Origin: Escherichia phage ETEC-TG
Reading direction: 5' to 3' (one strand)
DNA: 64,000 nt
Sequence record: OR786310.1
Part shown: piece by piece, positions 1,985 through 56,304 of the stretch
How positions within the stretch are numbered: position 1 is the stretch's first letter
Layout: the number at the start of each line of letters is the position of its first letter
The notes under the pieces: model-generated
What the model saw: the letters and a program-made list of their open reading frames with translations, nothing else
Database searches by the model: none
What the model was told of the DNA's origin: nothing
Program-made: the position numbers and the translations under genes

Positions 1985-2190
1985 TGTAGTACTCTGTACT
2001 CAAGTACTGTACTCCGTACTAGATTAATAATTATTAAATATTAATAATAAATAATTATTAGATCTAACAAACAGGTACAGTGTATCAGAACTGGTACGTA
2101 CAGATCAACTTCTATCAATTAAAAATAAAATAATAAATTATTATAAATAATACTTGATCTATAGATCGGTATGAAGTACAGTACGGAACA
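1985..2190. promoter_or_regulatory. divergent control region with GTACT repeats and AT-rich/GATC palindromes (candidate ori or regulatory hub)
   Basis: 5 GTACT copies at 1989-2020, more GTAC motifs at 2073-2186, perfect palindromes ttaataattattaa and gatctatagatc; lies between leftward and rightward gene blocks. Confidence 0.4.
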
Positions 2191-47165: not shown

Positions 47166-49763
47166 CTAGTGACAGGACGCCCAGGAATTACCCACATCGT
47201 ATCCGGCAGTAAGCTGAACGTTAAGATTGTAAAATTCTCCAGCCTTAGTAACAGCTAAAGCAGCAAGTTCACCTGCCCGACTATAGGCTGTAAACCATCC
47301 ACCTTTGGGAGATTCATGAATGTTAGCCCAAATTTGCCCTGTCTCTTTTTCCTTATTATGCTTCCATTCTTCGACTTTAGCAAGGCATTCTTTATCAATT
47401 TTCTTTTGTTCTTCAGGATCGTCTACTTTCTTCCAACCTAATGATTCGGGTGAAAACCATTTGAATTCTACAAGGTTACGAGAAACTTCAAGCTGGGCTT
47501 CATCGTGGTATGCAATCATTTGTTGCACGAAGTCTTTATTCTTCCAGTCATCTTTAAAGAAGTCAACACTTAGCCCTTCTTCTTCGATCATGTCGTCATA
47601 AATAACCATTGCACGTTTAGCACAAATAACCCCACCACTTTGGAACAGAGAGTTAAGAATCGCGTGAGCAGAACGAGTAGGAACCTTACGACCGTCAATA
47701 CCCAAAACATATTGTTTACCAGTCTTAACCCAGAAATCGTTTAAACGTTCTTTAAGACGCGCCAATGGAAATGCAGCTTCCCAGAAAGCATCGAACACCA
47801 ATTGACCTGTAAACTTGTCGCTACCAATTGTTTTAGCAACCTTGTCGGCTTGTGCACCATAAGTAATACCATACTTAACAGATTTAGCAGGACTACGTTC
47901 AAATTTACGTCCAATAGTTTCAGTGATACGTTTTGCCATCATTGTGTGAACATCGTTAGGTTTCTCTAACAACAGAGCGTTACAATATTCGTGTGGCTCC
48001 GGCTCGTACCGCCAACAGTAGTGTGATTCAATTTTTGCTTCCAAAGAGTCGAAGTCGTAGCCAATCTGGAAGTACTTAGGAACCTCTACACCAAACAAGT
48101 TACGCATCTCCCATCCAAACAAAGATGTGACACGAGGAATATTAGCTACAGACCTATGCTTCATACGAGAGGTTGCAGCATCACATGTAGCTGCTGGGGT
48201 AGGAATACGACCATCCGCCCTTACTGCGGCTAAGAAACCTTTATCATATTCTTGATCTTCCTCATCTTCTTCCCAATCAGCACCACCGCCTAAAATAGAA
48301 TTCCTACGATGCTTATACGTTAAGTATTCTACAATCTGTGTAGCATAAGGGAATTTCTCACCTAAAGCTTGCAGGTTAGGACAGATTTCTTTTTCCTGAC
48401 CTTTGGTAAAACATGGGTTAGTCAATACTTTAAGACCGCGACCCTTACCTTTTGCTATACGCTCTTGAATCTTCCTCTCCAAGGTTTCCGGTGTGCACTC
48501 CAGATGATCACAACGATCCTGACAAAAATTAGAAGACAGAGTTTGCTCAACGTAAGCTCGAATACCTTTCTGAAGTTCTTCCTCGCTCTTTTTAATCTTG
48601 GTGCCAGATTTAAGAGTCAAGTCTTTATCTTTATATTCAGACGGTACCCAACCTAATCCTACAAGCCAGTTTTTAATATGGGTAGTATCGTTCAATGTTG
48701 CAGGGATATTAGGATCACACAAAGGCTCATCTGCTGCAACTGGTAGTTTCCACTCTTTCCCCAACATAACTAACCACCAATCGCCATTCCTCTCTTCCAA
48801 ATGACCATCATGTTTCTTAGCAAAATTGATCATATGGTTAGTTGGCTCTAAGTTCTTTTTAATTTGCAACTTAGGTGGAATAAAAGCCTTAAGATAACCT
48901 TTTGTTGCTGGTTTAGGTGGCAAAATAGGCTCAACGAGTAAACGAAGACGCTCCATTTCTGCATCCAAAAAAGCAAGGTTCTCTTCTGCTTGCTTCATGT
49001 TAAAAGCAAACCCACGGTGTTCCTGGCGTGTAATAATGTCTGCTACACGTTGTTCAAGTTCAAATGGACCTTCCCATTTATCATAATCACCCCATTCTTC
49101 CATAAGGTAATTATATACGCTCGTATTGGCTTTGTTGTCATAGATACAGTAATAAAGCATATCAGCAGCAAAAGTCTTAAATCGATCTTCTTCTGGAACC
49201 TCTTTACGAAAATCTATTTTTACATCACCCCCTGCCTTTCGAGAAAGTGCTGCCAAGCTATGTCCTGATTTGCCCTCAATCTTTCGATCTGGGTTTAACA
49301 CTTTACTCAAAATCAAGGAGTCAATAAGTTTTACCTTATTTTTACCCCACGTATTATATTTAACACTGTAATCTAAACCATAAAACAGTTTTGTAGCCAA
49401 CCAGTCATAGTTGATACCGTTGTGAGCCACAGCCATTTCAACCAGATATTCAGGCTTATCTTTAAAATAACCTTCATGATTAATAAAGTCTGGGAAATCT
49501 TTTAGTTGAAAATGTGTGTAATCTTGCGCCACATACTCTTTAAGAACATATGTGTATTTACCATCTGACTCTTCATAAGGACGCCCATCAAAGATGTATT
49601 TAGGGCCATCGTGGAAAGCTACTATTTCTCCTGTTTCATGGTTCTCTAAGACAATACAGTGCATTTGAAATGTGTCTTTGAGACGATAAGGACTAGCTAA
49701 ATAATCGATAGTGTCATTATTCAACAATCCGTTTGCTTCAATATCCCATGTAAACTTACTCAC
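47166..49763 (-). CDS. DNA polymerase, family A, with 3'-5' exonuclease domain
   Basis: Exo I motif FTWDIEANGL; motif A DFDSLEAKIE; motif B RSPAKSVKYGITYG; motif C IAYHDEAQ. Confidence 0.85.
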   Translation of the reverse strand: MSKFTWDIEANGLLNNDTIDYLASPYRLKDTFQMHCIVLENHETGEIVAFHDGPKYIFDGRPYEESDGKYTYVLKEYVAQDYTHFQLKDFPDFINHEGYFKDKPEYLVEMAVAHNGINYDWLATKLFYGLDYSVKYNTWGKNKVKLIDSLILSKVLNPDRKIEGKSGHSLAALSRKAGGDVKIDFRKEVPEEDRFKTFAADMLYYCIYDNKANTSVYNYLMEEWGDYDKWEGPFELEQRVADIITRQEHRGFAFNMKQAEENLAFLDAEMERLRLLVEPILPPKPATKGYLKAFIPPKLQIKKNLEPTNHMINFAKKHDGHLEERNGDWWLVMLGKEWKLPVAADEPLCDPNIPATLNDTTHIKNWLVGLGWVPSEYKDKDLTLKSGTKIKKSEEELQKGIRAYVEQTLSSNFCQDRCDHLECTPETLERKIQERIAKGKGRGLKVLTNPCFTKGQEKEICPNLQALGEKFPYATQIVEYLTYKHRRNSILGGGADWEEDEEDQEYDKGFLAAVRADGRIPTPAATCDAATSRMKHRSVANIPRVTSLFGWEMRNLFGVEVPKYFQIGYDFDSLEAKIESHYCWRYEPEPHEYCNALLLEKPNDVHTMMAKRITETIGRKFERSPAKSVKYGITYGAQADKVAKTIGSDKFTGQLVFDAFWEAAFPLARLKERLNDFWVKTGKQYVLGIDGRKVPTRSAHAILNSLFQSGGVICAKRAMVIYDDMIEEEGLSVDFFKDDWKNKDFVQQMIAYHDEAQLEVSRNLVEFKWFSPESLGWKKVDDPEEQKKIDKECLAKVEEWKHNKEKETGQIWANIHESPKGGWFTAYSRAGELAALAVTKAGEFYNLNVQLTAGYDVGNSWASCH

Positions 49764-50557
49764 TATTCCTCCTTTCTAATGTTCTCCAGAACCCACTGAA
49801 GTTCTTTTAAACTTAAACTTCTTACTCCCGCAGTTTTACTAGCTTCAGTTTTAAGTAACGGGTAAGCCTCAATGATACGCGTTTTAAGATCAGAAGTCAA
49901 GGCTTTTAAAAAATAGGTAGATGCTTCAGATAAAGAATCTTCTTCTGATAACACTTTACCTGCACTTGCTCCCGCTCTCCTAACGGCTATATCGTAGTCT
50001 TTACTGTTACCTAATACGAATAGTCGATTCTCTCCTAAAACAACGGGAGAACGCTTCTTGTTGCGTTTAATCCATATCTGGAATACACAAGGAACATCCC
50101 AAGGTTCTCCATGAAGAATAAAAGATCCTTTTGGACATTCTTCTTCGTAAAGAAGATGCATGTGGGGATTTAGTTTGTGTGCAAAAAAGATTTTTTGAAA
50201 TGTGCGAGGCAAGATAAAACAAATACCACCTTCGTTATCCAACATTTCAGCACAATGGTTAAAGAACTTAATGGCAAGACTGGCATTTTTTCCAAACGGA
50301 GGATTACCGACAAAAGCAGTTACACTACCAACAGACTCAACAGATTGAGCTAAAAAATCTGCCTCAATACAATCTTCAAACTTAGGGTCAATATCAAAAG
50401 AAGTTATGTTTTTAAAACAAGAAGAGAAAGCTCCTTCTCCCGCAGATGGTTCTACGTAGTTAGCTTCCTCTCCAAAAATTTCTTTGATCTTATCACATAA
50501 GAACCCCGCATAAGCGGGGTTAGTGTAATATTGATCAAGTATGTTCAACTTGCTCAA
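49763..50557 (-). CDS. N6-adenine (amino-type) DNA methyltransferase, orphan
   Basis: SAM-binding motif VEPSAGEGAF and catalytic motif VGNPPFGK; no adjacent restriction endonuclease. Confidence 0.75.
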   Translation of the reverse strand: MSKLNILDQYYTNPAYAGFLCDKIKEIFGEEANYVEPSAGEGAFSSCFKNITSFDIDPKFEDCIEADFLAQSVESVGSVTAFVGNPPFGKNASLAIKFFNHCAEMLDNEGGICFILPRTFQKIFFAHKLNPHMHLLYEEECPKGSFILHGEPWDVPCVFQIWIKRNKKRSPVVLGENRLFVLGNSKDYDIAVRRAGASAGKVLSEEDSLSEASTYFLKALTSDLKTRIIEAYPLLKTEASKTAGVRSLSLKELQWVLENIRKEE

Positions 50558-50566
50558 TAGTCCTCC

Positions 50567-50998
50567 TTAGTTGTTAGCGAACTCAATAGTGAGGTCAACT
50601 TTACCATCATCAGAAATAACCATGTTTTTAGTATTTTTAAAGATGATATCTACTTTACCTTCACTTACACGACAGAATGCAACACCATCTGCAACTTTAT
50701 CGATATAATATTTGTAAGAAAGAATACCCACTTTACTACGACCAGCACCTTTTGTGAAAGAAGGGCTTACATCGAAACGGAAACCTTTAGAAGAAACAAC
50801 ACGGTAAGAACGTCCAGTTGGGATATGTTCAATAACAGAAACATTGTTCTCAACAACTTTTACAGCAAACTCTTCAGGATGATCCTCAACAATCATATGT
50901 GGGATGGCAAATGCCAACGCTTGTTTGTGTTTAATAACACCAGCACCCAGAGCACCAGCAGCTTTAACTTTTGCATTCAGATCGATTGTCATACGCAT
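50567..50998 (-). CDS. hypothetical protein
   Basis: ORF track; between methyltransferase and primase-helicase. Confidence 0.4.
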   Translation of the reverse strand: MRMTIDLNAKVKAAGALGAGVIKHKQALAFAIPHMIVEDHPEEFAVKVVENNVSVIEHIPTGRSYRVVSSKGFRFDVSPSFTKGAGRSKVGILSYKYYIDKVADGVAFCRVSEGKVDIIFKNTKNMVISDDGKVDLTIEFANN

Positions 50999-51076
50999 TT
51001 TTACTTCTCCTCTTGTTTGGTTGATGAGACAAGTATAAGTCCCTTCCGCAAAGTTGTCAACAGGTATTTTTAATAA

Positions 51077-51092
51077 AAGGGCCGAAGCCCTT
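51077..51092 (-). other. intergenic stem-loop (GGGC-UUCG-GCCC on the transcript)
   Basis: Near copy of the 47131 hairpin, directly after the primase-helicase stop. Confidence 0.45.
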
Positions 51093-54111: not shown

Positions 54112-55059
54112 CTACAAACTTTCAATAACCTGGCGTCGCAACTCATTTGCATCTGCCAGATTATAATGTGTTCGAACATGTTCAGCCAAGAACAAGCCAC
54201 GATCTTCCCGATAGTTTGGATTGCGAAGAAGCTTAACAATTTCGTAATGCCATTCTGCTTTGTTCTCTGCGTAAGCAACAGCACGAGCATCTACAGGGTT
54301 AAAATAAGGTAATACTTTAGAACAAACAATCGGAATACCTTTTGCTCCAGCTTCCAGGATTTTGAGATTACTTTTACAATTATTAAAATCATTATCTACC
54401 AAAGGAGCTATAGCAATAGCATGACTTTCGTAAACACTCATGTAATTATCTAAATCTTTTACAGCGGCTTTATATTTGGCATTTGGTAAATTTCTGCGAA
54501 TCTTAATCCATTCTTGTCCCGTGATGCTCTGTGATGCTTCATATCCCGCAATAGTAAGAAGTTCATCATCGAAAGTATTAGAGACTAGTCGTAAATCTGG
54601 TTCGTGACTAGCACCGCCAGCCCATACAACAGGGGTACCGGATGAACGATCATTTGACAAAGTGAATTGTCCACTATCAAAAGGAAGTGCATTTCGGATC
54701 ACAACAACATTCCTATTTAAGTGACGGATCTTATATGCCAAATATTCTGTAGTCACAATAACCACATCAGCAAGCTTAACCATAGCTACAATAGCATGAG
54801 TGTTTGACTCGTATAGATTTGCTAAATAATGTTCTGGATTAAGTTGGTAGAAATCATCTAAATCTACAACAATCTTAACACCTTGACGTTTCAAAGATAA
54901 AACGTATTCTGCACCTTTAGAGTGGATACGGTTAAACACAACAACATCTTTCTTAGGTTGAAGATTATGGTTGTTAAATGGCATAACAATACGATGATAG
55001 TCACAACCGCTGTGAGGTTTTGCATCAATTTTTAGTTTAGACCATTTTTTATTTGACAT
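54112..55059 (-). CDS. glycosyltransferase, GT-B type (paralog 2)
   Basis: KSNLKILEAGAKGIPIVCS; shares CDYHR, DLDD and WAG motifs with paralog 1. Confidence 0.45.
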   Translation of the reverse strand: MSNKKWSKLKIDAKPHSGCDYHRIVMPFNNHNLQPKKDVVVFNRIHSKGAEYVLSLKRQGVKIVVDLDDFYQLNPEHYLANLYESNTHAIVAMVKLADVVIVTTEYLAYKIRHLNRNVVVIRNALPFDSGQFTLSNDRSSGTPVVWAGGASHEPDLRLVSNTFDDELLTIAGYEASQSITGQEWIKIRRNLPNAKYKAAVKDLDNYMSVYESHAIAIAPLVDNDFNNCKSNLKILEAGAKGIPIVCSKVLPYFNPVDARAVAYAENKAEWHYEIVKLLRNPNYREDRGLFLAEHVRTHYNLADANELRRQVIESL

Positions 55060-55732
55060 GTGCTAGTGCCTCCTCATAGGAAATTCGGATTTTCCCATTT
55101 TTAATATCCTCTAAAGATGCTTTATATTCTTCCCAGTTAATCCCGATAGCAGCTTCTTTCTCTTCTTTTGTCAGATTAGCAAAAGGCATAGGATTGTTTC
55201 CAAAAACATCGTCTGGGTGGATATAAGCCATGATACGAAGTGGACAAGGTGTTGCCTGAATACCATGATTCAAACCAGCAGCTTGTAAACGGTGTCCCCA
55301 TTCAGCATCTTCAAAACCATAACCATGAGTGTAAGGACGGAAATAACCCATCTTCTCAACAACGGCACGAGAATACATTGCAAATTGACACATTGCAAGT
55401 TCCCAGAGAATAACTTCTCCTTTGCTTCCAACAACTTTATCTTTGAAGTACTCCGGCATACCAAAGAAATCCCATCCTCCAGAAACAGCTTGATCTACAA
55501 AGTATGTTTCCCATCCTTCCATGACTGGGTAGCAATCGTCGTCAAAAATAAACCAATAATCATAACCTTCTTCATAAAACTGGTGCATAAGTTCATTCCT
55601 GGCATAAGCTACACCTTTACGATCTGGATCGTTGAATACTCGAAAATCTGCACGTGGATCTGTTACAAGGTAGTCTTTAAGTGGACGGACACCTACAGTG
55701 ATAACACCCACTCCGATTTTAATATTTTCCAT
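55049..55732 (-). CDS. glycosyltransferase, GT-A fold (family 2-like)
   Basis: YARNELMHQFYEEGYDYWFIFDDDCYP (DxD motif) and GFEDAEWGHRL second motif. Confidence 0.5.
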   Translation of the reverse strand: MENIKIGVGVITVGVRPLKDYLVTDPRADFRVFNDPDRKGVAYARNELMHQFYEEGYDYWFIFDDDCYPVMEGWETYFVDQAVSGGWDFFGMPEYFKDKVVGSKGEVILWELAMCQFAMYSRAVVEKMGYFRPYTHGYGFEDAEWGHRLQAAGLNHGIQATPCPLRIMAYIHPDDVFGNNPMPFANLTKEEKEAAIGINWEEYKASLEDIKNGKIRISYEEALAHVK

Positions 55733-55740
55733 TTTCTCTC

Positions 55741-56304
55741 CTAAATAGTTTTACTGTGATCGTGACAGTGTAATAAATGATGTATAGACCGTTGAGGATT
55801 TGTTTGACCTAATCTGTAAATGTGAAACAGATACATTCCCCGCATCAATCCTAACCTCTTTCCTTTTTCATGTAAAGTGTGAGAGAAAATTAAGTCGAAT
55901 TGGATAGATTTTTCTTCGAAAGGAATTTCATTCCACAATGATTTTCTAAAAAGCAAAAAGAAACCTGCCAGAGGTGTTCCGAAAGGAACTTCTTCAACAC
56001 TCACTTTATGATATTCTCTTGCAATCTTAGCATATTCTATATGGTTTAGAATATCTGGATCATCGTTAATTTGGTTAGAGAAAAGCTGATAACCACTGCC
56101 TAACCTGTTACAAGTTGCACCTATTACATCAAAAGGCGGGTTTGACATAACAAGCTCTTCAAGCATAGATGGTTGATCAGGTAGGAGGAACATTGTATCG
56201 GTATCTCTTAAACACACCCAACTATCATCTGGAAGAACGGCAATGGCTTCATTGATAGCCTTGCCGATATTTCCTGTCAGATAGGGAGTAATATAATAAA
56301 TCAT
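55741..56304 (-). CDS. nucleotide-sugar transferase-like protein (GT-A-like, DxD)
   Basis: N-terminal ITPY...GNIGKAINEAIAVLPDDSWVCLRDTDT pattern. Confidence 0.35.
   Translation of the reverse strand: MIYYITPYLTGNIGKAINEAIAVLPDDSWVCLRDTDTMFLLPDQPSMLEELVMSNPPFDVIGATCNRLGSGYQLFSNQINDDPDILNHIEYAKIAREYHKVSVEEVPFGTPLAGFFLLFRKSLWNEIPFEEKSIQFDLIFSHTLHEKGKRLGLMRGMYLFHIYRLGQTNPQRSIHHLLHCHDHSKTI

What the first reader, a model, noticed from the sequence alone, without database searches (positions are those of the whole stretch)
49763..50557. Orphan N6-adenine DNA methyltransferase overlapping the DNA polymerase gene start
The ORF carries SAM-binding motif VEPSAGEGAF followed by NPPF (VGNPPFGK), the order seen in gamma-class amino-methyltransferases. 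There is no partner endonuclease, and it is translationally coupled to the polymerase gene. This fits a self-protective anti-restriction methylase. GATC-containing palindromes in the 2060-2170 control region are candidate targets.
Basis: partly seen in the sequence, partly recalled or inferred. Interest (0 to 1): 0.5.

Follow-up and report, generated by a model that had tools for sequence, protein, structure and literature searches.

The report
Phage adenine methylase with restriction-enzyme-like neighbour
The ORF is a real type II-family N6-adenine DNA methyltransferase of a phAPEC8-like coliphage; it forms a two-gene cassette with a diverged restriction-enzyme homologue just upstream, and its likely target is GTAC rather than GATC.

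Summary
It is a 264-aa minus-strand ORF (TTG start, AGGAGG RBS) with motifs EPSAGEGAF then NPPF, and its TAG stop shares one base with the GTG start of the DNA polymerase gene. The window is a Phapecoctavirus, and close relatives already annotate this gene as a putative N6-adenine methyltransferase.

A DNA substrate is well supported. The protein matches PADLOC's MTase_II model at E 1e-36, and its fold matches M.BseCI, M.TaqI and CamA over about 230 residues. In 70 of 169 related loci the gene lies next to one of two type II restriction-enzyme families.

"No partner endonuclease" needs correcting. The 143-aa ORF 9 nt upstream (50567-50998) is a remote homologue of one of those restriction-enzyme families (hhalign 95.7%, E 9e-9). 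It lacks the E..D..(D/E)xK signature. It stays next to the methylase in several phage lineages. In one close relative (89% identical primase/helicase) both genes are absent together.

The GATC idea is unsupported. The GATC cluster is what chance gives, and GATC is not depleted. GTAC is threefold depleted in cassette carriers but not in relatives without it (p 1e-4). It is absent from a lineage that lost the methylase, and 10 of the window's 68 sites cluster at 1989-2184. No methylation experiment on these phages was found.

The parts
49763..50557 (-). 264-aa SAM-dependent N6-adenine DNA methyltransferase, type II family, gamma motif order. Motif X-like LDQYYT at residues 7-12, motif I EPSAGEGAF at 36-44, D55, motif IV NPPF at 85-88, and a conserved C-terminal half (VPCVFQIW, RRAG..AGK, TAGVRSLS).
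50567..50998 (-). 143-aa ORF, first gene of the unit. It is a diverged homologue of a small type II restriction-enzyme family (PADLOC REase_II PDLC03550). It keeps the PSxTKGxGR motif but not the E..D..(D/E)xK signature. Its stop TAA (50569-50567) overlaps the methylase RBS.
   Evidence: hhalign 95.7%, E 9.2e-9; control 2.8%; 18 of 18 members of the related family hit REase_II; no direct hit for the window protein; conserved; at least 99% identical in 62 phage records; low-confidence model, alpha-beta-beta-beta-alpha-beta order
51032..51060 (-). sigma-70-like promoter TTGACA-17-TATACT (11 of 12 matches) in the 92-nt gap before the 143-aa gene
   Evidence: consensus match only. The region as a whole has no excess of such matches.
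51071..51090 (-). GGGCTTCGGCCC hairpin followed by a T-run, directly after the primase/helicase stop. Terminator-like, read by eye.
   Evidence: The 4-bp stem is below the scanner's threshold.
47166..49763 (-). 865-aa family A DNA polymerase (intein-free allele). Its GTG start shares one base with the methylase stop.
1989..2184 (.). Array of 10 GTAC sites (GTACT x5, then five more GTAC sites) around AT-rich blocks in a divergent intergenic region. Candidate target or binding array for the cassette; this link is inferred.
   Evidence: (never reached in 2000 random placements). The link to the methylase rests only.

Best explanation
The ORF encodes an active-looking SAM-dependent N6-adenine DNA methyltransferase of a type II restriction-modification family. 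The family is gamma in motif order and TaqI/EcoKI-like in its core. The gene is the second in a three-gene unit: promoter, 143-aa gene, methylase, DNA polymerase. The enzyme is therefore made while the phage replicates and probably methylates new phage DNA at a short site. The 143-aa gene and the methylase together form an accessory cassette derived from a restriction-modification system. The 143-aa protein descends from the small restriction enzyme that accompanies this methylase family in bacteria and giant viruses, but it has lost that family's canonical catalytic residues. Site statistics point to GTAC (giving GTm6AC) rather than GATC as the cognate site. The methylation most likely shields phage DNA from GTAC-directed cleavage. 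Shown: the gene structure, the family assignment, the partner homology, the presence or absence of the cassette among relatives, and the GTAC statistics. Inferred: enzymatic activity, the GTAC target, the protective role, and whether the 143-aa protein is inactive.
For: Family and substrate: PADLOC MTase_II at E 1.1e-36 over nearly the full length. All family-invariant SAM-binding and NPPF residues are present. The model has pLDDT 94 and aligns over 223-233 of 264 residues with the DNA methylases M.BseCI, M.TaqI and CamA. Distribution is patchy and mobile: 95 confirmed relatives in a scan of one genome from each of 185,579 species, near IS1595 transposases and serine recombinases, against at least 513 viral contigs. 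Among 169 methylase loci, 43 have a PDLC03460-type and 27 a PDLC03550-type restriction-enzyme gene next door, and none has both. Partner: homologues of the 143-aa ORF sit next to the methylase in divergent phages, upstream or downstream. A search started from the 143-aa family found the methylase adjacent in 6 of 6 viral loci. Profile-profile homology to the restriction-enzyme family is 95.7%. A close relative with an 89% identical primase has neither gene. GTAC: obs/exp is 0.33 in the window; the carrier median is 0.43 against 0.81 in relatives without the cassette (p = 1.4e-4); the methylase-less lineage has 0 of about 40 expected sites; GTAC is the most depleted palindrome mainly where a restriction-enzyme partner is present.
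Confidence: 0.6

Rival explanations
1. This is a complete, working phage restriction-modification system. The 143-aa protein is an active GTAC-directed nuclease with a rewired active site, used against host or competitor DNA. The methylase protects the phage's own genome from it.
For: GTAC depletion tracks the cassette, as genomes are known (from memory) to avoid their own restriction sites. The lineage that lost the methylase kept the 143-aa gene at 50% identity and has no GTAC at all, 0 of about 40 expected. The 143-aa protein is more conserved than the methylase: at least 99% identical in 62 records. The subgroup has its own invariant K83 and conserved acidic positions. Viral restriction-modification systems with small, domain-less restriction enzymes are known in chloroviruses and marseilleviruses.
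Against: The E, D and (D/E)xK positions of the parent family align with P, L and (K/R)xV. The protein does not hit the REase_II model directly. The structure model is of low confidence, pLDDT 52. Complete purges of other 4-mers (CTAG, GATC) occur in relatives without the cassette, so pressure from host enzymes alone can explain a purge.
Confidence: 0.25
2. It is an RNA (rRNA or tRNA) N6-adenine methyltransferase of the METTL5/COG2263 kind, not a DNA enzyme.
Against: Those matches cover only about 110-150 N-terminal residues, whereas the DNA methylases align over 223-233 residues. The protein matches MTase_II at E 1e-36. Family members recur next to type II restriction-enzyme genes. Distribution is patchy and mobile rather than housekeeping. 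In phages the gene sits in replication or nucleotide-metabolism modules.
Confidence: 0.05
3. One reading: a solitary Dam-like anti-restriction methylase that targets GATC palindromes in the 2060-2170 region.
For: Four GATC sites, two within palindromes, lie at 2061-2164. Phage-encoded GATC methylases exist (from memory).
Against: The cluster is what chance gives (P = 0.92), and GATC obs/exp is 0.95. There is no match to the Dam family PF02086, and the motif order is not alpha. One phage carries this methylase together with a separate PF02086 enzyme. GATC is depleted to 0.25-0.65 in five of the seven other carrier lineages sampled. The E. coli host's own Dam already methylates GATC (from memory).
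Confidence: 0.07

Closest known systems
Gamma-class N6-adenine DNA methyltransferases M.TaqI, M.BseCI and CamA
   Different: Sequence identity is only 15-20%. Those enzymes have 420-580 residues with large recognition domains, whereas this one has 264 residues and a C-terminal part of about 100 residues. Profile search of the PDB gives only E about 2 for TaqI.
Type II restriction-modification systems represented by PADLOC models MTase_II PDLC03255 with REase_II PDLC03550 or PDLC03460
   Same: The methylase matches PDLC03255 over nearly its full length. Relatives lie next to members of the two restriction-enzyme families, often with overlapping stop and start codons or in convergent orientation.
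   Different: In the window the neighbour is only a remote homologue without the catalytic signature. The cassette sits inside a lytic phage's replication operon. The models carry no recognition sequence.
Virus-encoded restriction-modification systems of chloroviruses and marseilleviruses (CviAI, mel_015/mel_016)
   Same: An adjacent m6A methylase and a small restriction enzyme that standard domain tools do not recognise, of prokaryotic origin and kept under selection (PMC7253447). Many relatives of this family are in giant-virus MAGs.
   Different: Those systems target GATC and have demonstrably active nucleases in viruses of eukaryotes.
METTL5 / Ta1320 (COG2263) RNA m6A methyltransferases
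   Different: They are about 200 residues long and end after the Rossmann fold. They are housekeeping enzymes with no restriction-enzyme neighbours, and the match covers only the N-terminal half to 60% of this protein.
Plant EDM2 methyltransferase-like (ELP) domain, Pfam PF26055 Mtase_EDM2
   Same: About a third of the listed homologues carry precomputed PF26055 hits. [quoted passage not shown]
   Different: EDM2 is a large nuclear PHD-finger protein. The window protein could not be scored against PF26055: the local Pfam copy returned no PF26055 hit even for homologues that carry the precomputed hit.
P1 DarB, and phage Dam-type orphan methylases (T4 Dam, P1 Dmt)
   Same: Phage-encoded adenine methylases linked to anti-restriction or packaging. 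One database record labels this gene 'DarB-like anti-restriction'.
   Different: DarB is a protein of more than 2000 aa combining methylase and helicase (from memory). Only weak matches were found to large phage protein families (E 1e-7 and 0.05). Dam enzymes belong to the alpha class and PF02086, which this protein does not match.
GTAC systems RsaI, Csp6I and CviQI (recalled from memory, not tested)
   Same: Two unrelated kinds of GTAC-cutting enzyme, and m6A modification by M.CviQI. This would fit one methylase family paired with two mutually exclusive restriction-enzyme families and with GTAC avoidance.
   Different: No sequences of these enzymes were available, so this is a lead only.

Membership tests
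Gamma-class amino (N6A) DNA methyltransferase | Motif order X, I, IV-VIII, with the recognition region C-terminal | tested here: met
   LDQYYT at 7-12, EPSAGEGAF at 36-44, NPPF at 85-88, and a conserved C-terminal half
Gamma-class amino (N6A) DNA methyltransferase | SAM-binding glycine loop, acidic residue after strand 2, and (N/D)PP(Y/F) catalytic loop all intact | tested here: met
   E36, P37, A39, G40, G42, D55, N85, P86, P87 and G89 are invariant in 44 sequences and present in the window protein
Gamma-class amino (N6A) DNA methyltransferase | Fold similarity to solved members beyond the generic Rossmann core | tested here: met
   M.BseCI 233, M.TaqI 223 and CamA 233 aligned residues, against about 150 for RNA enzymes
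Gamma-class amino (N6A) DNA methyltransferase | Methyl transfer to adenine N6 in DNA at a defined sequence | not testable with these tools
   No experimental data found
Type II restriction-modification methyltransferase (PADLOC MTase_II) | Significant full-length match to a type II methylase model | tested here: met
   PDLC03255, E 1.1e-36, residues 21-254 against profile positions 15-250 of 269
Type II restriction-modification methyltransferase (PADLOC MTase_II) | A cognate restriction enzyme with an intact catalytic motif encoded nearby | tested here: not met
   HMMs of both partner families give no direct hit in the window. The 143-aa neighbour is homologous only at profile level and lacks E..D..(D/E)xK.
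Orphan (solitary) phage methyltransferase | No restriction-enzyme gene or relic associated with the methylase | tested here: not met
   The adjacent 143-aa ORF is a restriction-enzyme-family homologue conserved alongside the methylase
Dam family (alpha class, PF02086, GATC) | Match to MethyltransfD12, alpha motif order and DPPY | tested here: not met
   No PF02086 hit at E up to 1; NPPF lies after motif I
METTL5/COG2263 RNA m6A methyltransferases | About 200-aa single-domain enzyme, conserved as a housekeeping gene | tested here: not met
   There is an extra conserved C-terminal part of about 100 aa. Distribution is patchy and mobile, with restriction-enzyme neighbours.
Pfam PF26055 Mtase_EDM2 | Score above the Pfam threshold for PF26055 | tested here: inconclusive
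   Homologues carry precomputed PF26055 hits, but the local Pfam scan returned no PF26055 hit for them or for the window protein
PD-(D/E)XK type II restriction enzyme family PDLC03550 (for the 143-aa ORF) | Homology to the family | tested here: met
   hhalign 95.7%, E 9.2e-9 over 107 columns, with a negative control at 2.8%. An independent run gave 92%, E 5.5e-7.
PD-(D/E)XK type II restriction enzyme family PDLC03550 (for the 143-aa ORF) | Conserved DGR, invariant Asp and (D/E)xK residues | tested here: not met
   They align with other residues (P, L, (K/R)xV). The subgroup's own invariants are P33, S80, K83, G84 and R87.
P1 DarB-like anti-restriction protein | Very large methylase-helicase protein | tested here: not met
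   The protein has 264 aa. Matches to large phage protein families are weak and cover the methylase domain only (phrog_9133 E 1e-7, phrog_5143 E 0.05).

The most novel reading that the evidence does not exclude
The 143-aa protein and the methylase may form a reader-writer pair descended from a restriction-modification system. In this reading the catalytically altered restriction-enzyme homologue binds GTAC according to its methylation state, and the array of ten GTAC sites at 1989-2184 is its control point, for example an origin or an early/late switch. Genome-wide loss of GTAC would then keep the protein from being titrated or from cutting elsewhere. A variant of this reading has the protein as a rewired, active GTAC nuclease, so that one lineage restricts without modifying by having purged every site.
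Probability: 0.15. Interest if true: 0.75.

Novelty: new member of a known kind. Interest (0 to 1): 0.42.

Why it matters
The methylase alone is ordinary: phage adenine methylases are common, and close relatives already annotate this gene. Three things add value. First, the neighbouring 'hypothetical protein', present in at least 65 cultured-phage records and in diverged form in Vequintavirus phages such as Bas58, now has an ancestry in a restriction-enzyme family and a testable partnership with the methylase. Second, the analysis yields a specific prediction, GTm6AC, that one sequencing run or one digest can check. Third, the same analysis exposes an uncharacterised restriction-modification family with two alternative nucleases. 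Its nuclease components are labelled hypothetical in every source name seen. It spans bacteria, phages and giant-virus MAGs, and it appears related to the methyltransferase-like domain of the plant regulator EDM2. Phapecoctavirus and Vequintavirus phages are candidates for phage therapy, so knowing which host restriction systems they evade has practical use.

Tried and rejected
Curated libraries gave little.
- For the methylase, Pfam returned only a sub-threshold Eco57I hit and NCBIfam returned nothing; for the 143-aa ORF neither returned anything.
- PHROGs places both genes in families of unknown function.
- A single-sequence PDB search was uninformative.

Searches on the two neighbour families:
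- PDB profile searches found nothing, and Pfam and NCBIfam scans gave no significant hits.
- Only PADLOC recognised them.

Tools that failed or fell short:
- The afdb50 fold library was unavailable.
- The BFVD fold search gave only unnamed or generic methylases.

Literature searches for methylome or restriction data on Phapecoctavirus or Vequintavirus found no experiment. The supplements of the giant-virus methylome paper did not hold the CviAI/mel_016 entries searched for.

Ideas rejected:
- A second NPPF-containing ORF (55741-56304) has no SAM motif and looks like a glycosyltransferase.
- A non-specific adenine methylase is unlikely, because orthologue-bearing BASEL phages are restricted by EcoRI and EcoRV.
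- The idea that the methylase relaxes GTAC avoidance fails: carriers are more depleted than non-carriers.
- The 143-aa protein is not an obligate partner of the methylase, because one lineage has it without the methylase.
- Methylases whose neighbour is a 143-aa-type homologue are not clearly closer to methylases paired with one restriction-enzyme family than the other.
Full report
**What the window is.** The 2.2 kb around the finding is 98.7-99.5% identical to the best-matching phAPEC8-like E. coli myophages (genus Phapecoctavirus, about 150 kb), and 64 records cover most of the query. Those records name the ORF in several ways: putative DNA N6-adenine methyltransferase, DNA methyltransferase, hypothetical protein, or DarB-like anti-restriction. 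In phage anhysbys the gene order is primase/helicase, hypothetical protein, methyltransferase, DNA polymerase, as in the window.

**The observation.**
- The ORF lies on the minus strand at 50557 to 49763 and encodes 264 aa. It starts at TTG, four bases after AAGGAGG.
- Homologues begin at the same MSK...LDQYYT, so the TTG start is credible.
- VEPSAGEGAF is residues 35-44 and VGNPPFGK is residues 83-90.
- The stop TAG and the polymerase start GTG share base 49763, and AGGAGG lies inside the end of the methylase gene.
- The downstream ORF is a family A polymerase and the ORF upstream of the pair is a Toprim/DnaB-type primase-helicase.

**Is it a methyltransferase, and of what substrate?**
- Curated libraries are nearly silent. 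Pfam gives only Eco57I at E 0.017, NCBIfam gives nothing, and PHROGs gives phrog_5172 'unknown function' plus a weaker DNA-methyltransferase family.
- The family is nevertheless large: 2463 hits in one search.
- In 44 diverse members the SAM loop, D55 and NPPFG are invariant, as are many residues in the C-terminal half.
- An AlphaFold model is confident, with pLDDT 94.
- A profile search of PDB sequences also favours Ta1320 and METTL5, over the N-terminal 110-130 residues only.

Two further lines settle the substrate question in favour of DNA.
- PADLOC's type II methyltransferase model PDLC03255 matches at E 1.1e-36 over nearly the whole protein.
- The genomic company of the family points the same way, as described next.

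**The company the family keeps.**
- The family is rare and scattered in bacteria. A pattern-based scan of one genome from each of 185,579 species gave 95 confirmed relatives, spread across many phyla and often near IS1595 transposases or serine recombinases.
- It is common in viral contigs, including giant-virus MAGs, with at least 513 hits.
- Clustering the neighbouring ORFs showed two recurrent families directly beside the methylase, usually with overlapping stop and start codons or in convergent orientation.
- One family has about 215 aa and a motif HGxxFE...FD...SIK...KIDSKxQRRLQCS.
- The other has about 160 aa with DGR...E...YDxxD...Y(D/E)xK...PSxMIGxGR.
- Pfam, NCBIfam and the PDB do not recognise either, and every public source name seen is 'hypothetical protein'.
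- PADLOC recognises both as type II restriction enzymes: PDLC03460 hits 15 of 15 members and PDLC03550 hits 18 of 18.
- Over 169 methylase loci, 43 have the first family, 27 the second, 9 a diverged form of the second, and none has both.
- This is the pattern of a type II restriction-modification methylase with alternative cognate nucleases.

**The neighbour in the window.** HMMs of the two families do not hit any window ORF directly. However, the 143-aa ORF at 50567-50998, nine bases upstream of the methylase, behaves as a partner.
- Its homologues lie next to the methylase in phages whose methylases are only 49-59% identical. They lie upstream in two lineages and downstream, overlapping the methylase, in Vequintavirus phages. 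The wider context differs too: a replication module in one case and a nucleotide-metabolism module in another.
- An iterative search from the 143-aa protein reaches the 160-aa restriction-enzyme family.
- Profile-profile comparison confirms this. An alignment from the fetched loci gave 92%, E 5.5e-7. An independent 21-sequence alignment from a database of 1.8 billion representatives gave 95.7%, E 9.2e-9 over 107 columns. The control against the other restriction-enzyme family gave 2.8%.
- A search started from the 143-aa family found the methylase adjacent in 6 of 6 viral loci.
- A 153-kb relative whose primase/helicase is 89% identical has the polymerase directly after the primase, so both genes are missing together.

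The two genes therefore form an accessory cassette.

**Is the 143-aa protein a dead enzyme?**
- The shared motif is PSxxxGxGR.
- The restriction-enzyme family's helix glutamate, invariant aspartate and (D/E)xK align with P, L and (K/R)xV in the phage subgroup. The subgroup's own invariants are P33, S80, K83, G84 and R87.
- There is no direct REase_II hit.
- The structure model is poor (pLDDT 52), although its element order, helix, three strands, helix, strands, is that of a PD-(D/E)XK core.
- The protein is at least 99% identical in 62 phage records, which makes it more conserved than the methylase at 95-99%.
- One lineage keeps it at 50% identity while an unrelated 112-aa gene replaces the methylase.
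- It is therefore functional in some way. Whether it still cuts DNA cannot be decided here.

**Expression.** A GC hairpin with a T-run follows the primase stop. A TTGACA-17-TATACT match (11 of 12) and a GAGGAG RBS then precede the 143-aa gene. The 143-aa stop overlaps the methylase RBS, and the methylase stop overlaps the polymerase start. This reads as one unit of three genes. The promoter is a consensus match only.

**The target site: GATC.**
- The four GATC sites at 2061-2164 are real, but such a cluster is expected by chance (P = 0.92). GATC is at 0.95 of expectation in the window.
- The enzyme is not of the Dam family.
- One phage has this methylase together with a separate Dam-type methylase and a C5 methylase.
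- GATC is depleted to 0.25-0.65 in five of the seven other lineages sampled that carry the pair.
- Nothing links this enzyme to GATC.

**The target site: GTAC.**
- GTAC is the most depleted 4-base palindrome in the window, 68 sites against 204 expected.
- It is depleted in every lineage that carries the 143-aa gene, at 0.16-0.66 of expectation.
- It is entirely absent (0 of about 40 expected) from all three sampled contigs of the lineage that lost the methylase, where other palindromes are only mildly low.
- Relatives that share the primase/helicase but lack the cassette, together with phi92, show 0.59-1.04. The medians are 0.43 for carriers and 0.81 for non-carriers, Mann-Whitney p = 1.4e-4.
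- Across all methylase loci, GTAC is the most depleted palindrome in 19 of 34 viral and 11 of 30 bacterial loci with a restriction-enzyme neighbour. Without such a neighbour the figures are 10 of 37 and 4 of 44. The direct per-locus contrast is weak, p = 0.05 and 0.25.
- Remaining GTAC sites show no flank bias.
- Ten of the 68 sites lie within 1989-2184, a divergent, AT-rich intergenic region. That concentration was never reached in 2000 random placements.

GTAC is thus the candidate site.

**Two ways to read the GTAC pattern.**
- These lineages may meet hosts with GTAC-cutting enzymes and respond by both purging sites and methylating.
- Alternatively the cassette's own 143-aa protein acts on GTAC and the genome avoids its own enzyme's site.
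- Complete purges of other 4-mers in cassette-free relatives (CTAG 0 of 30, GATC 0 of 18 and 0 of 25) show that pressure from host enzymes alone can do this.

**Function.**
- Bas58 of that collection carries a 54% identical methylase and the overlapping 152-aa homologue.
- The enzyme is therefore not a broad or non-specific protector. A narrow, site-specific role is consistent with this.
- No methylome or enzymology for these phages was found.

**Relation to known systems.**
- In kind, this is a type II restriction-modification methylase of gamma motif order carried by a phage. Many records already annotate it as such.
- The new points are the restriction-enzyme ancestry of the neighbouring 'hypothetical protein', the cassette behaviour, the GTAC prediction, and the existence of an uncharacterised restriction-modification family with two alternative nucleases across bacteria, phages and giant viruses.
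- Virus-encoded restriction-modification systems with small, domain-less nucleases are known in chloroviruses and marseilleviruses (PMC7253447).
- About a third of the listed homologues carry Pfam PF26055, the methyltransferase-like domain of plant EDM2.
- A resemblance to the RsaI and Csp6I/CviQI GTAC systems is recalled from memory and was not tested.

**Verdict.** The feature is a new, uncharacterised member of a known kind, with a moderately interesting twist. I put confidence that it is a DNA N6-adenine methyltransferase at about 0.85, that the two genes are a cassette derived from a restriction-modification system at about 0.8, and that GTAC is the target at about 0.5.

Noticed in passing
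window 1989-2184: Ten of the window's 68 GTAC sites lie here, in a genome otherwise threefold depleted in GTAC. They form GTACT x5 at 1989-2020, then five more sites at 2075-2184. They flank AT-rich blocks in a divergent intergenic region between a minus-strand ORF (1409-1732) and plus-strand ORFs starting near 2216. The region looks like an origin or operator.
   Followed up: partly
window 47166-49763, compared with L001 3565-6897: The window's DNA polymerase (865 aa) is an intein-free allele. In phage anhysbys the same gene carries a 244-aa in-frame insert (CVPMD...ITGN, followed by C) after residue 583, and the flanks are 99.7-100% identical.
   Followed up: yes
window 55049-56304 (minus strand): The ORF at 55741-56304 contains NPPF but no SAM-binding motif. 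It and its neighbour at 55049-55732 have DxD-like motifs (DTD, DDD) that suggest glycosyltransferases. The NPPF is a chance match, not a second methylase.
   Followed up: no
whole window: Several 6-base palindromes are absent despite appreciable expectation: CTGCAG 0 against 13.3 and CCATGG 0 against 7.4. GGCC, CTAG, CCGG and CATG are at 0.49-0.68 of expectation, which indicates restriction-site avoidance.
   Followed up: no
L184, L185, L002, L178-L180: Related phage contigs show complete purges of single 4-base palindromes that differ by lineage: CTAG 0 of 29.7 in L184, GATC 0 of 17.8 in L185 and 0 of 24.9 in L002, and GTAC 0 of about 40 in L178-L180.
   Followed up: partly
L009-L086 and L092-L171 (for example L012 1845-2498, L058 5792-6265): Two families of small proteins next to the methylase match PADLOC type II restriction-enzyme models PDLC03460 and PDLC03550. 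For the PDLC03460-type family, every public source name seen is 'hypothetical protein'; no source names were checked for the other. Neither has a significant Pfam, NCBIfam or PDB match.
   Followed up: partly
L090 79-2075: One phage contig carries this methylase together with a Dam-type (PF02086) methylase and a C5 (PF00145) methylase within 6 kb, so it has multiple methylases.
   Followed up: no
window 51032-51090 (minus strand): A GGGCTTCGGCCC hairpin with a T-run directly after the primase/helicase stop is followed by a near-consensus TTGACA-17-TATACT. This marks a likely transcription-unit boundary in front of the 143-aa gene.
   Followed up: partly
homologues P0011-P0118; L006, L090: Many homologues carry precomputed hits to Pfam PF26055 (Mtase_EDM2). 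This links the phage and bacterial family to the methyltransferase-like domain of the plant immune regulator EDM2.
   Followed up: partly
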